IMG/VR virus record: IMGVR_UViG_2671180349_000010
Strand: one strand, 5' to 3'
Length of the DNA stretch: 9,481 nt
Origin: a virus
Lineage: Duplodnaviria; Heunggongvirae; Uroviricota; Caudoviricetes
Shown here: positions 989 to 2,327 of the stretch, in pieces
Position numbering within the stretch: position 1 is the first letter of the stretch
How the letters are laid out: each line of letters starts with the position of its first letter
The notes under the pieces: generated by a model
Databases searched by the model: none
Told to the model about the DNA's origin: nothing
The model's input: only the letters and a program-made list of their open reading frames with translations
Made by a program: the position numbers and the translations under genes

Positions 989-1016
989 TAAAAAAAAGGC
1001 TGCGCAATGCGCAGCC
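989..1016 (-). terminator. Intrinsic terminator (GC-rich hairpin + U-run) on the minus strand, downstream of the small-membrane-protein module
   Basis: Plus 998..1016 ggctgcgcaatgcgcagcc is a perfect 8-bp inverted repeat (GGCTGCGC / GCGCAGCC). It is preceded on plus by a run of A (989..997), which is a run of U after the hairpin on the minus-strand transcript. Confidence 0.55.
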
Positions 1017-1201
1017 AGAACTCACAAGGAAAATGATAAAAGGAATAACACTAGTGATGTACGCATGGCGCCTCCCGCTAAGTTCTGCAATGATCAAACA
1101 GAACTCGCTACGTGCCCTTAAAACTCGATCATTTAGCCCCTCCAAGGAGGATTCACCATGCGGTTGATTTTTTAATAAACAGTAAACAAAAAAGTCAAGA
1201 A

Positions 1202-1312
1202 TTATTCATTCTGTTCTTTCATCATCGGCCACAGCAATACCACAATGCCGCAGACCAGAGCGCCATCTGTCAGTACCAACATTATCCTGCTGGTGAAATC
1301 CATCATCACCAT
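1202..1312 (-). CDS. Hypothetical 36-aa hydrophobic peptide (MVMMDFTSRIMLVLTDGALVCGIVVLLWPMMKEQNE); weak support
   Basis: Hand-translated minus-strand ORF below the ORF-track size cutoff: ATG at 1312..1310, TAA at 1204..1202. It has a single hydrophobic stretch and lies between the 80-aa gene and the terminator at 989..1016. No convincing Shine-Dalgarno upstream. Confidence 0.2.
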   Translation of the reverse strand: MVMMDFTSRIMLVLTDGALVCGIVVLLWPMMKEQNE

Positions 1313-1445
1313 CACTAAAAGCAGGATCACAACAGCAAGCAGACACAGTTTATAAAACAATGTTCAGAAAACGCATTCAGCATGCCTAAGGTTCTATTCC
1401 TACGAATAGCCAACTTGCAACTTAAAATATTATTTATGCAGCCAA

Positions 1446-1685
1446 TTAAATTCTGGTCCTTACAATATCAACCTGAAGATTCTTATCTTGTGCTGATTGA
1501 TAAATGACAAACCTTTTACTACCTGCATTGAAAGAAGTAGACAAAACCAGACAATTATCATAACGAGCAAGAACATAATACCAACCATCATTATAATTAA
1601 TCATTTCATATTCTTTCTTAAACTGTGGTTTGTAATATCCTGTCAGAAATGAAAAAAGCCAAAAATATGCCACAAAAGCAATCAT
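1446..1685 (-). CDS. Hypothetical small membrane-anchored protein (~79 aa), second gene of the AT-rich cargo module
   Basis: ORF-track entry 1446..1688. The codon at 1688..1686 is GTG and the first ATG is at 1685..1683, sharing a base with the upstream gene's TGA stop (sequence GTGATGA). N-terminal hydrophobic segment IAFVAYFWLFSFLTGYY followed by a polar domain. No family recognised. Confidence 0.45.
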   Translation of the reverse strand: MIAFVAYFWLFSFLTGYYKPQFKKEYEMINYNDGWYYVLARYDNCLVLSTSFNAGSKRFVIYQSAQDKNLQVDIVRTRI

Positions 1686-2203
1686 CACAATCTCAAAAAA
1701 ATGTTTTTTATAAATGGCTTATCATAGAAGCATGATACTGATAAAAATCGCCCATAAGATCTTATCGAAATTGTAACCGCCAGCGCAATCGCTGCTGACA
1801 GTAGCAAAAGAGGTACCTGAATCTTCTGTCTCAATATAGAAAACTCAATAATTGCCGGCACAAACAATAATTCCACAGCAAAATAAAGGCGAAATACATT
1901 TAGCTCTTGCATAGAATGTTTTCTTTTCACTGCGAAAAAGAATACAACACCAATACCCCAACCGATAAGAAATATAGCAATGACAATAACTGCAAAAAAT
2001 AAACTTCTGGCAACATCATCAACACCTGCACCTACAATCCACCATGGGAAGCCGTAGTAAAAAGAAGTACCCCATCCATAGAAATAAGCACTCCCCCATC
2101 CAAGGCATCCCATGTAGGCAATAAAAAGTGAAGAACTCCTGAGCAGCGCACCATCCTTCATAACCACCCCAATACAAGATGATAACATTGGCTTACAACT
2201 CAT
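1685..2203 (-). CDS. Hypothetical multi-pass membrane protein (up to 172 aa; true start may be an internal Met, e.g. ATG at 2161)
   Basis: ORF 1685..2203 has at least three strongly hydrophobic helix-length segments (SLFFAVIVIAIFLIGWGIGVVFFFAV, LYFAVELLFVPAIIEFSIL, VPLLLLSAAIALAVTISI) and a Gly/aromatic-rich stretch GWGSAYFYGWGTSFYYGFPWW. AT-rich codon usage unlike the flanking phage backbone. The ATG at 2203 has no SD and falls inside a promoter-like -10 element; the ATG at 2161 follows GGGGTGG. Confidence 0.5.
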   Translation of the reverse strand: MSCKPMLSSCIGVVMKDGALLRSSSLFIAYMGCLGWGSAYFYGWGTSFYYGFPWWIVGAGVDDVARSLFFAVIVIAIFLIGWGIGVVFFFAVKRKHSMQELNVFRLYFAVELLFVPAIIEFSILRQKIQVPLLLLSAAIALAVTISIRSYGRFLSVSCFYDKPFIKNIFLRL

Positions 2204-2228
2204 AACAAAAGCAATTCAATGCCGTCAA
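2199..2228 (-). promoter_or_regulatory. Candidate sigma70-type promoter for the cargo module (-35 TTGACG, 18-bp spacer, extended -10 TGtTATGAG)
   Basis: Minus-strand reading of 2228..2199: TTGACG (plus 2223..2228), then an 18-nt spacer, then TATGAG (plus 2199..2204) preceded by TG. Pattern match only. Confidence 0.25.
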
Positions 2229-2300
2229 GAGGTTACAGGCTAAAAAAACTCTATTACATAGCAGCCAGCATGTTTACCGTACAAGTACAACTCAGGGCAT

Positions 2301-2327
2301 AAAAAAAACCCACTCGGCAGCGGGTTT
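2301..2327 (-). terminator. Intrinsic-terminator-like hairpin + U-run on the minus strand, immediately downstream of the 257-aa gene
   Basis: Minus strand reads CCCGCT-GCCG-AGTGGG followed by TTTTTTTT (plus 2301..2308 is a run of A). The stem is 6 bp including one G-U pair. Confidence 0.4.

What the first reader, a model, noticed from the sequence alone, without database searches (positions are those of the whole stretch)
989..2327. Terminator-bounded AT-rich cargo module encoding two coupled small membrane proteins, in the slot where Stx phages carry toxin genes
Between the Q-position gene and the nanS-p-like esterase is a compositionally distinct AT-rich block. It has a hairpin + U-run terminator at each end (2301..2327 and 989..1016) and a possible promoter of its own (2199..2228). 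It encodes a multi-pass membrane protein (1685..2203) whose TGA overlaps the ATG of a ~79-aa membrane-anchored protein (1446..1685), possibly followed by a 36-aa hydrophobic peptide. I recognise neither protein as a lambda backbone gene or a known family. In Stx-converting lambdoid phages this exact slot (downstream of Q/tR', upstream of nanS-p and the lysis genes) holds stx, so the block is a moron by position and is expressed in lysogens or on induction. Small membrane-protein pairs carried as prophage morons are often exclusion or abortive-infection determinants, but the function here is open.
Basis: partly seen in the sequence, partly recalled or inferred. Interest (0 to 1): 0.8.

Follow-up and report, generated by a model that had tools for sequence, protein, structure and literature searches.

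The report
Frameshifted membrane-protein moron of phage 434
The "two coupled small membrane proteins" are the two halves of one already catalogued but uncharacterised prophage membrane-protein gene, split here by a one-base deletion, so the finding is an ordinary decayed copy of known phage-434 cargo.

Summary
The window is a lambdoid prophage 99.67% identical to phage 434. The AT-rich block (GC 0.38) between Q and the nanS-p-like esterase is real, and both hairpin/U-run terminators sit exactly where stated.

The "two translationally coupled ORFs" are an artefact. In phage 434 and in 674 of 682 E. coli genomes that carry the block, they form one ORF of about 238-247 aa. The window lacks one A in an A7 run (now A6, 1709-1704). 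This creates the TGA/ATG overlap.

The intact protein belongs to a small catalogued family: Pfam PF27470 "TfpB" and phrog_1521. The model has five TM helices plus a C-terminal small beta-barrel, and no structural relative was found. Members also occur as Salmonella STM1630 (next to sseJ), on the Shigella virulence plasmid, beside eltAB on ETEC plasmids, and in Neisseria and Pasteurellaceae chromosomes.

The "36-aa peptide" is a 52-aa DUF3927 ("TciB-like") protein. It partners the gene only in the E. coli prophage module.

The block is dispensable cargo, because viable phage 434B lacks it. It lies in the late operon downstream of the probable pR' and its terminator. No PADLOC defence model matches. 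The biochemical function is still unknown.

Verdict: already known, and a pseudogene in this window. Low interest.

The parts
2361..2389 (-). Probable late promoter pR' of the Q82-type Q: TTGCAA (2389-2384), 17-nt spacer, TATACT (2366-2361). It overlaps the 3' end of Q (stop codon 2375-2373). Inferred start is near 2354, with a -10-like TATATT at 2346-2341.
   Evidence: Best sigma-70 match near the end of Q (9/12), with the sequence read. Its function and its identity as pR' are inferred from lambdoid architecture and were not tested.
2298..2327 (-). Intrinsic terminator (tR'-like): stem-loop 2327-2306 followed by a T-run. It is also the left edge of the block shared with prophages that carry a different Q.
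   Evidence: Found by the terminator scan. Folds at -13.3 kcal/mol, z -3.2. Annotated as a terminator in phage 434. Homology with 2B8, C7 and EDL933 prophages starts at 2326.
2179..2228 (-). Candidate internal promoter region. A start near 2172 would lie downstream of the first two ATGs (2203, 2188) and just upstream of the SD GGGGTGG and the ATG at 2161.
   Evidence: Found by the scan. The same site is conserved in the EDL933-type copy. About 75% identity with the ETEC-plasmid copy extends upstream to 2232. Not above chance statistically, and there are no transcript data.
1446..2203 (-). Frameshifted (pseudogene) copy of a single PF27470/'TfpB'-family inner-membrane protein gene. The longest reading starts at 2203, the 434 annotation at 2188, and the family-consensus start is ATG 2161. 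The stop of the restored frame is at 1446.
   Evidence: It is one 744-nt ORF in phage 434 and E. coli O26. PGAP marks the A6 allele 'frameshifted'. phrog_1521 matches the restored protein at E = 2e-154. PF27470 is the label on all homologs.
1704..1709 (-). A6 homopolymer, which is A7 in phage 434. This is the site of the 1-nt deletion that splits the gene and produces the premature TGA (1687-1685) overlapping ATG (1685-1683).
   Evidence: Base-by-base comparison with OL657226. A6 occurs in 8 of 682 E. coli genomes and A7 in 674. The tract is absent from other family members.
1202..1360 (-). DUF3927 small membrane protein (52 aa from a TTG start), called 'TciB' or 'TciB-like' in phage annotations.
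   Evidence: Pfam PF13064, E = 3.4e-14, 53 bits against a 25-bit cut-off, covering residues 7-50. phrog_1470, E = 2.5e-17. RefSeq WP_000499454.1.
957..1145 (-). Doubtful 62-aa ORF, annotated only in the phage 434 record. It overlaps the downstream terminator.
   Evidence: Annotated in 434. No PHROG, PADLOC or NCBIfam family matches it. PGAP does not call it. The segment is replaced in the EDL933-type prophage.
989..1016 (-). Intrinsic terminator downstream of the cargo: 8-bp stem with 7 G-C pairs (1016-998), then T8 (997-990).
   Evidence: Found by the scan. Folds at -15.9 kcal/mol, z -3.6. Annotated as a terminator in 434.
2373..3062 (-). Q82-type antiterminator Q. This is context, not part of the cargo.
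   Evidence: Pfam PF06323, E = 1.3e-91. The 434 annotation calls it 'Q82-like'.
1..903 (-). 5' part of the nanS-p-like DUF1737/SASA esterase gene, carrying a GAG->TAG nonsense change at 354-352. This is context.
   Evidence: Pfam DUF1737 and SASA matches. Comparison with 434.

Best explanation
The region is the known cargo block of phage 434 and its many E. coli prophage relatives. It lies in the late operon between the Q antiterminator and the nanS-p-like esterase.

Anatomy (shown). The order is: probable pR' overlapping the end of Q, then a tR'-like terminator, then ONE gene for a ~238-aa inner-membrane protein of family PF27470 ('TfpB'), then a 52-aa DUF3927 membrane protein, then a second terminator. 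In this window the first gene is inactivated by loss of one A from an A7 tract. Reading terminates six codons later at a TGA that happens to overlap an in-frame ATG. This mimics a translationally coupled gene pair.

The protein (predicted). The intact protein has five TM helices. By the positive-inside rule it is N-in, with the C-terminal SH3-like beta-barrel in the periplasm. The frameshift separates TM1-4 from TM5 plus the barrel.

How it works (inferred). During induction the block is transcribed by Q-modified RNA polymerase, which reads through both terminators, as for stx in Stx phages. A candidate internal promoter just upstream of the consensus start could give expression in lysogens. 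Relatives on plasmids and chromosomes have no Q, so they must use their own promoters. The Salmonella member STM1630 has a mapped transcription start.

Likely role of the intact gene (inferred, about 0.4 confidence). It is probably a horizontally spread, H-NS-silenced envelope protein that affects bacterial fitness in the animal host, that is, a lysogenic-conversion factor rather than a phage lytic or anti-phage function. In this window it is most likely non-functional.
For: Identity with phage 434 and the single indel.

One ORF elsewhere. PGAP labels the A6 allele 'frameshifted'. Allele counts are 8 A6 against 674 A7 among 682 genomes, and the A6 genomes are from unrelated backgrounds.

Family-wide single-polypeptide architecture, kept down to 12-28% identity in Neisseria and Pasteurellaceae. 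Family labels. DUF3927.

Terminators and promoters. Block boundary at the hairpin behind two Q types.

Dispensable for the phage: 434B, which is viable, lacks the region (annotation; PMC9119081). Deposited phage genomes with the gene are only 434 and 2B8, so it is absent from the sequenced Stx phages in that collection.

Structure: pLDDT 81, pTM 0.74. Topology reasoning.

Host-related role. STM1630 was verified as a family member from the primer sequence, gene length and position. It is H-NS-bound and expressed in SPI-2-inducing medium and in macrophages. Mutants were reported attenuated in calves and chicks, and deletion raised intramacrophage replication (PMC6785131 Text S1). It is co-regulated with SPI-2 (PMC2639726). 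Family members sit next to sseJ, next to eltAB, and on Shigella pINV.
Against: No transcript or protein data exist for the E. coli prophage gene, so late-operon and own-promoter expression are inferences. The promoter-like sites are not more frequent than chance.

The biochemical function is unknown. No residue typical of an enzyme is conserved across the broad family. No structural relative was found.

The host-fitness role rests on one Salmonella paralogue at 46% identity. Its phenotypes are modest and partly unconfirmed: hypermotility reported in PMC4219756 is not among the phenotypes confirmed in PMC4534456.

The A6 allele could be an assembly error rather than a real mutation. Some re-initiation at the ATG (1685) cannot be excluded.
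Confidence: 0.8

Rival explanations
1. The frameshift is not biological. The A6 run is a homopolymer sequencing or assembly error, and the source organism carries the intact single gene.
For: The difference is a single base in a 7-nt homopolymer. The 8 E. coli assemblies with A6 come from unrelated lineages, and sister O145 strains have A7 at the same locus. That pattern fits sporadic errors as well as it fits sporadic slippage.
Against: The same window carries other decay marks relative to 434 that are not homopolymer errors: a GAG->TAG nonsense in the esterase gene and an 8-bp insertion. A decaying prophage is therefore plausible. Three related UTME pig isolates share A6, which suggests inheritance.
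Confidence: 0.3
2. The intact gene, alone or with DUF3927, is a superinfection-exclusion or abortive-infection determinant that acts at the inner membrane.
For: It is a prophage moron encoding membrane proteins. Known exclusion proteins such as P22 SieA, T4 Imm and HK97 gp15 (from general knowledge) are small inner-membrane proteins. No function is established, so this is not excluded.
Against: There is no match to any of 5027 PADLOC models. Relatives occur as single genes between housekeeping genes in H. ducreyi, and in Neisseria and Pasteurellaceae. Others occur beside effector or toxin genes on chromosomes and virulence plasmids. The Salmonella member is SPI-2 co-regulated and macrophage-induced. 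The DUF3927 partner is absent outside the E. coli prophage block.
Confidence: 0.12
3. The A7 tract is a slipped-strand phase-variation switch that turns the membrane protein ON (A7) or OFF (A6). The OFF form may still yield two coupled fragments.
For: A6 alleles recur in unrelated genomes. PHROGs holds separate families for the two halves (phrog_14371 and phrog_3985), so split copies recur in deposited phage genomes. The premature stop overlaps an ATG.
Against: OFF alleles are only about 1% of genomes (8/682). Seven bases is short for a contingency tract (general knowledge). The tract is missing from all other family members and is interrupted (AAAGAAG) in a 93%-identical relative. No A8 class was seen among the top 60 hits.
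Confidence: 0.05
4. One reading: two distinct, translationally coupled small membrane-protein genes forming a two-component module.
For: There is an ATGA stop/start overlap, and each half has predicted TM segments.
Against: Restoring one base fuses them into the ORF found in 434 and in 674 of 682 genomes. All homologs down to 12% identity are single polypeptides covering both halves. NCBI's pipeline calls the A6 form a frameshifted pseudogene.
Confidence: 0.03
5. The protein is a lysis accessory (holin, antiholin or lysis-timing factor), given its late-operon position.
For: It lies upstream of the lysis cassette and is membrane-embedded.
Against: The phage has its own class II pinholin, SAR endolysin and spanins further downstream. 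No holin family matches in Pfam, PHROGs or NCBIfam. Homologs occur outside phages. 434B lyses without it, though with DLP12 lysis genes.
Confidence: 0.04

Closest known systems
Phage 434 genes CPT_434_68 ('putative membrane protein'), CPT_434_69 ('TciB') and CPT_434_70, with their flanking terminators (GenBank OL657226; Feiss et al. 2022, PMC9119081)
   Same: The DNA is 99.7% identical over the whole block, with the same order Q82-type Q, terminator, membrane protein, DUF3927, terminator, SASA esterase.
   Different: The window has A6 instead of A7, which splits CPT_434_68 into two ORFs. There are also a few SNPs, and a nonsense codon in the esterase gene.
Salmonella Typhimurium STM1630 (PF27470 member between steB and sseJ)
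   Same: It is in the same family: 46% identity, 238 aa, the same five-TM plus beta-domain layout. It is AT-rich, H-NS-bound, horizontally acquired DNA next to virulence genes.
   Different: It is chromosomal, not in a prophage late operon. It has no DUF3927 partner. It has its own mapped promoter about 210-245 nt upstream. It has infection-related expression and phenotypes, none of which has been tested for the E. coli gene.
stx (and LT-II) cargo of Stx-converting lambdoid phages
   Same: The slot is the same: downstream of Q/pR'/tR' and upstream of nanS-p and the lysis genes. Expression is therefore expected to follow Q antitermination on induction (synteny; the Stx-phage layout is from general knowledge).
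   Different: The cargo is unrelated, with no toxin and no tRNA genes. The gene is absent from every deposited phage genome except 434 and 2B8, so it is an alternative occupant of the slot, not a companion of stx.
P1 TciB / DUF3927 (PF13064, phrog_1470)
   Same: The 52-aa ORF matches the family above the curated threshold.
   Different: The label 'inhibition of cell division or resistance to colicin' is inherited annotation. I found no experimental study of DUF3927. In P1 it sits in a different gene context (tciA-tciC, from general knowledge).
MscS-type channels and SH3-like small beta-barrels (structural resemblance only)
   Same: TM helices are followed directly by a small beta-barrel. Weak recurring hits are to MscS, the KorB C-terminal domain and the integrase C-terminal domain.

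Membership tests
Pfam PF27470 'TfpB' / PHROG phrog_1521 | Significant match to the family profile over the full length | tested here: met
   The restored protein matches phrog_1521 at E = 2.1e-154 over profile positions 1-222/222. Every homolog, including the identical 434 protein P0001, carries the precomputed label PF27470. My local Pfam copy lacks this model, so the Pfam match itself is taken from the precomputed table (one search shows no local hit).
Pfam PF27470 'TfpB' / PHROG phrog_1521 | One continuous polypeptide of about 236-250 aa containing the N-terminal AYxYGWG...YYGFPWW motif, TM helices and the C-terminal beta-domain | tested here: not met
   In the window the reading frame breaks at the A6 tract (1709-1704). 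The two halves instead match the 'half' families phrog_14371 and phrog_3985. The window copy is therefore a pseudogene of the family, not an intact member.
DUF3927 (PF13064) / phrog_1470 'TciB-like' | Score above the Pfam gathering threshold | tested here: met
   53.0 bits against a 25-bit cut-off, E = 3.4e-14, residues 7-50 of 52. phrog_1470, E = 2.5e-17.
Translationally coupled two-gene operon | Two genes that are separate in related genomes, with a conserved stop/start overlap | tested here: not met
   They form a single ORF in 434, O26 and EDL933, and in 674 of 682 genomes. The overlap exists only in the A6 allele.
Late-operon moron in the Q-to-lysis slot (as stx in Stx phages) | Located between Q/pR'/tR' and nanS-p/lysis genes, on the same strand, and dispensable for phage growth | tested here: met
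   Synteny in 434, O26 and EDL933. Viable 434B lacks the region. The block is shared behind two Q types.
Late-operon moron in the Q-to-lysis slot (as stx in Stx phages) | Transcription dependent on Q antitermination, or an own promoter active in lysogens | not testable with these tools
   Only consensus promoter and terminator matches are available. No RNA data could be reached for E. coli.
Known anti-phage defence systems (PADLOC-DB v2) | Match to any defence-protein model | tested here: not met
   There were no hits at E <= 1 for the restored protein, the DUF3927 protein or the 62-aa ORF. This does not exclude an undescribed system.
Holin/antiholin | Match to a holin family, or a position as first gene of the lysis cassette | tested here: not met
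   No holin family matches. The class II holin of 434 is a separate gene downstream of the esterase.
Intrinsic (factor-independent) terminator | G+C-rich hairpin immediately followed by a U-run on the transcribed strand | tested here: met
   Both sites were found by the scan and fold stably with z -3.2 and -3.6. Termination activity itself was not tested.
Phase-variable contingency locus | A long homopolymer tract conserved in orthologs, with frequent ON/OFF length variants | tested here: not met
   The tract is only A7. OFF alleles are 8 of 682. The tract is absent or interrupted in the other family members.
MscS-like mechanosensitive channel | Significant structural or sequence similarity to MscS | tested here: not met

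The most novel reading that the evidence does not exclude
PF27470 ('TfpB') proteins may be a previously unstudied inner-membrane factor with a novel fold (five TM helices plus a periplasmic SH3-like barrel). They are spread by phages, plasmids and islands among enteric and mucosal pathogens: EHEC/EPEC prophages, Shigella pINV, ETEC LT plasmids, Salmonella next to sseJ, Neisseria and Pasteurellaceae. They may modulate the envelope or behaviour of the bacterium inside the animal host. The prophage copies would then be true lysogenic-conversion genes that occupy the stx slot and switch on with prophage induction or with relief of H-NS silencing.
Probability: 0.3. Interest if true: 0.5.

Novelty: already known. 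Interest (0 to 1): 0.2.

Why it matters
For this window it matters little. The feature is a decayed copy of cargo that is already annotated in phage 434 and in hundreds of E. coli genomes.

The practical lesson is that an ATGA stop/start overlap next to a homopolymer run should be checked against relatives before it is read as translational coupling.

The wider point concerns the intact gene family. It is conserved, has no structural relative, and keeps turning up beside virulence determinants (sseJ, eltAB, pINV, EHEC/EPEC prophages). Its one studied member is SPI-2 co-regulated and has reported infection phenotypes. Even so, nobody knows what it does. It is a reasonable, modest-priority target for functional work on lysogenic conversion.

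Tried and rejected
(1) Local Pfam, NCBIfam and PADLOC scans of the two halves and of the restored protein gave nothing meaningful. The Pfam family exists but is newer than the local copy.

(2) Literature on 'tciB' and 'TfpB' was unhelpful. tci names come from phage P1 papers. 'TfpB' hits were chemistry, anaesthesia or type IV pilus papers. From memory, the name derives from the tfpB ORF of the Moraxella pilin-inversion region, but I could not confirm this, and no Moraxella member appeared among the representatives I looked up.

(3) The first AlphaFold run, with 25 close homologs, was too poor to use (pLDDT 60). A 48-sequence alignment that included distant members gave pLDDT 81.

(5) Short 44/45-nt queries meant to count A6 and A7 alleles directly failed, because BLAST's low-complexity filter masks the tract. 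I read alleles from record spans instead.

(6) I looked for a DUF3927 partner next to family members in Salmonella, Yersinia, pINV, the ETEC plasmid and another plasmid-like context, and found none.

(7) Rfam and tRNA scans of the window found nothing.

(8) I rejected the holin, MscS-like channel, phase-variation and genuine two-gene readings. The reasons are in the membership table.
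Full report
WHAT THE WINDOW IS. Read on the minus strand, the window is the early-right/late-left part of a lambdoid prophage. 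The order is replication O/P-like genes, nin-region genes (NinB, methyltransferase, NinG/Rap, Ser/Thr phosphatase), an LpxR lipid A deacylase gene on the opposite strand, a Q82-type antiterminator Q, the block in question, and then the start of a DUF1737/SASA (nanS-p-like) esterase gene. Window 6407..1 aligns to phage 434 (OL657226, positions 37958-44358) at 99.67% identity, with 11 mismatches and 3 indels.

CHECK OF THE OBSERVATION. The compositional contrast is real. One is the stem 2327-2306 plus T-run (-13.3 kcal/mol, z -3.2). The other is the stem 1016-998 plus T8 (-15.9 kcal/mol, z -3.6). The authors of the 434 record annotated both as terminators. ORFs 1685..2203 (172 aa) and 1446..1688 (80 aa) exist, and the TGA of the first shares A1685 with an ATG of the second. 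There are no Rfam families or tRNA genes in the window.

THE TWO 'COUPLED' ORFS ARE ONE BROKEN GENE. In phage 434 (CPT_434_68), in E. coli O26:H11 11368 and in O157:H7 EDL933 (WP_001302581.1), the same DNA is a single 744-nt ORF. A base-by-base comparison shows that the window lacks one A of an A7 run. The 434 sequence is ...TTTATAAAAAAACAT..., and the window has A6 at 1709-1704. With A7 the frame reads ...KPFIKKHFFEIVMIAF..., straight through into the second ORF. With A6 it reads ...KPFIKNIFLRL*.

Among 5,426 complete E. coli genomes, 682 carry the segment. The best copy is A7 in 674 and A6 in 8: bovine C3 and C7, O145 RM8995-C1, swine CAU16175, UTME-9/-10/-14, and O111:H2 12A. PGAP labels the C7 copy 'frameshifted'. 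Sister O145 strains have A7 at the same locus. The A6 allele is therefore sporadic slippage, or in some assemblies a homopolymer error. PHROGs holds a full-length family (phrog_1521, E = 2e-154) and also 'half' families (phrog_14371, phrog_3985), which are evidently built from such split copies.

The A tract is absent from other family members and is interrupted (AAAGAAG) in a 93%-identical relative. This argues against a programmed switch.

THE INTACT PROTEIN AND ITS FAMILY. All homologs carry the precomputed Pfam label PF27470, named 'TfpB'. The model is newer than my local Pfam copy. The family is small: 103 clusters at 90% identity by word-indexed search, and 72 representatives at E <= 1e-3 among 1.84 billion proteins by exhaustive profile search.

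Close members are all from Enterobacterales: Escherichia, Shigella, Citrobacter, Cronobacter, Klebsiella, Enterobacter, Salmonella, Yersinia and Mangrovibacter. More distant members, at 12-28% identity, come from Neisseria and Pasteurellaceae: Actinobacillus, Gallibacterium, Avibacterium, Pasteurella and H. ducreyi. Every one is a single polypeptide of about 230-260 aa with the same layout. It has an N-terminal aromatic/glycine motif (AYxYGWGxSxYYGFPWW), further TM helices, a last TM helix and a C-terminal beta-domain (YYvLxxYxxxxILxK...F.IF). The family consensus begins at MxxxxLLRNSS. This points to ATG 2161 as the true start in the window; it is preceded by GGGGTGG, and the protein begins MKDGALL.

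A 48-sequence alignment gave an AlphaFold model with pLDDT 81 and pTM 0.74. It has helices 3-36, 47-79, 84-111, 116-137 and 155-181, and a five-strand barrel at 184-235. Basic residues concentrate in loops 80-83 and 138-154. By the positive-inside rule this gives N-in with the barrel in the periplasm (inference). The frameshift cuts between TM4 and TM5.

THE SECOND GENE. It matches DUF3927 (PF13064, 53 bits against a 25-bit cut-off, residues 7-50) and phrog_1470 'TciB-like'. The tci name comes from phage P1 annotation. I found no experimental work on DUF3927.

It accompanies the PF27470 gene only in the E. coli lambdoid block. It is absent next to the family members in Salmonella, Yersinia, Shigella pINV, the ETEC plasmid and another plasmid-like context. 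The two genes are therefore not an obligate pair.

A third ORF of 62 aa (957..1145) is annotated only in the 434 record. It overlaps the terminator, matches no family, and is replaced in EDL933. I regard it as doubtful.

BOUNDARIES AND REGULATORY ANATOMY. The same cargo sits behind two unrelated antiterminators. One is the Q82-type (PF06323), in 434, O26 and this window. The other is a 207-aa Q, in EDL933, strain C7 and phage 2B8. Homology between the two contexts begins at window 2326, the first base of the upstream hairpin. It runs to 1136 in EDL933 and to 879-850 in C7 and 2B8.

Upstream of the junction, the 434-type has TTGCAA-17-TATACT (2389..2361) overlapping the end of Q. I take this to be pR', by inference. 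The start would be near 2354, with a -10-like TATATT at +9 to +14, and the hairpin would begin about 28 nt downstream. The EDL933-type has a lambda-like TTGACT-17-GAAACT, and its junction hairpin is degenerate, so no terminator is called there.

Inside the block, TTGTTA-18-TATCAT with an upstream TG (2208..2179) is conserved in both contexts. A start near 2172 would fit the consensus ATG at 2161. These are consensus matches, no more frequent than chance, and they are untested.

IS IT CARGO? Yes. Phage 434B, a plaque-forming derivative, has about 5.5 kb including Q, the late promoter and the lysis region replaced by DLP12 DNA. The 434 record marks 41277-45846, which contains the whole block, as the region of non-homology (PMC9119081).

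Among 50,697 deposited phage genomes, only 434 and 2B8 encode the protein. It is therefore an alternative occupant of the slot that stx fills in Stx phages, not a companion of stx. The Stx-phage layout is from general knowledge.

WHAT THE FAMILY DOES: THE ONLY DATA. The Salmonella member next to sseJ is STM1630. The published deletion primer encodes NSSMLLAYLGGLGWG, identical to P0075, and the gene is 717 nt and lies divergent from sseJ.

According to PMC6785131 (Text S1), its function is unknown. [quoted passage not shown] Typhi. It carries an H-NS binding site, which probably explains the lack of transposon hits. It is expressed in SPI-2-inducing medium and in macrophages from its own promoter, and it is silenced by two -10 SNPs in all ST313 strains. 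Signature-tagged mutants were attenuated in calves and chicks. A clean deletion in strain 4/74 increased intramacrophage replication and had no effect on growth in LB.

It is listed among genes co-regulated with SPI-2 (PMC2639726). Hypermotility seen in a screen (PMC4219756) is not among the phenotypes confirmed on re-test (PMC4534456 abstract).

Other members lie 866 bp divergent from eltAB on the porcine ETEC plasmid pUMNK88_Ent, on Shigella pINV (pWR501 and many others), and as a lone gene between an rpoH-like gene and mqo in H. ducreyi.

MOST LIKELY MECHANISM. Shown: the anatomy, the frameshift, the family membership, the mobility and the dispensability. Inferred: on induction, Q-modified polymerase starting at pR' reads through both terminators and transcribes the block with the late genes. 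A weak own promoter and relief of H-NS silencing may allow expression in lysogens, as must happen for the Q-less plasmid and chromosomal copies.

The intact protein is probably an envelope protein that affects bacterial fitness in the animal host, rather than a lytic or anti-phage function (about 0.4 confidence). The exclusion/abortive-infection idea remains possible (about 0.12). It has no PADLOC support, and it fits poorly with the non-phage contexts and the SPI-2 co-regulation. In this window the gene is most likely dead. The esterase gene next to it also carries a nonsense codon, which is consistent with a decaying prophage. An assembly error in the homopolymer cannot be excluded (about 0.3).

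NOVELTY AND SCORE. The sequence, its annotation and its families are already in public databases, and the distinctive feature that drew attention is an artefact of a 1-nt deletion. I rate it 'already known', with interest 0.2. The residual interest is in the family, not in this locus. It is a conserved, structurally unmatched membrane protein that repeatedly sits beside virulence genes and has no known function.

Noticed in passing
window 352-354 (minus strand), within the esterase gene 1-903: The nanS-p-like DUF1737/SASA esterase gene carries a GAG->TAG nonsense change relative to phage 434. It is therefore also truncated (183 aa instead of 616), a second sign that this prophage copy is decaying.
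   Followed up: partly
window 3536-4495 (+), AT-rich block 3150-4650; Q remnant about 4621-4710 (-): An LpxR lipid A 3'-O-deacylase gene (Pfam E = 7e-40) lies on the opposite strand in a second AT-rich block (GC 0.364). Next to it is a 30-aa N-terminal remnant of a lambda-type Q. So LpxR, a YlcG-like ORF, the Q82-type Q and the membrane-protein cargo together appear to have replaced most of an older Q gene.
   Followed up: partly
L005 (EDL933) 5290-5460; also L002 and L004: In prophages with the other Q type, a lambda-like pR' (TTGACT-17-GAAACT) precedes the cargo, and the hairpin at the junction is degenerate (AACCTGCCGCCGAGTAGTTTTT), so no terminator is called. The cargo there might be transcribed from the normally constitutive pR' without Q.
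   Followed up: partly
L014 (pUMNK88_Ent) 3358-5714; L006 (Salmonella) 3349-5717; L013 (pWR501) 5001-5717: PF27470 family members lie divergently next to toxin or effector genes (eltAB with an 866-bp gap, an sseJ-like gene with a 425-bp gap) and on the Shigella virulence plasmid. I have not explained this recurring association with virulence loci.
   Followed up: partly
window 4606-4613 and 3418/3419: Relative to phage 434 there is an 8-bp insertion (ATTTTATT, which looks like a local duplication) in the intergenic region after the phosphatase gene. There is also a 1-nt deletion in a T-run upstream of the YlcG-like/76-aa ORF region.
   Followed up: no
window 2343 (minus strand), within TATATT 2346-2341: One of the few SNPs relative to 434 (A here, G in 434) falls in the -10-like hexamer just downstream of the putative pR' start. 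That is where Q82-type phages are expected to have the sigma-dependent pause element. Its significance is unknown.
   Followed up: no
window 3227-3457 (-) and 3077-3199 (-): A 76-aa hydrophobic ORF, whose last 40 aa match phrog_21286, and a 40-aa YlcG-like ORF lie between LpxR and Q. The 434 annotators note that the YlcG-like ORF is the crossover point for 434B.
   Followed up: no
L015 (contig labelled 'MAG: Veillonella sp.'): A 3-kb contig assigned to a Veillonella metagenome-assembled genome encodes a protein 100% identical to the E. coli/434 protein. This is almost certainly a binning contaminant.
   Followed up: no
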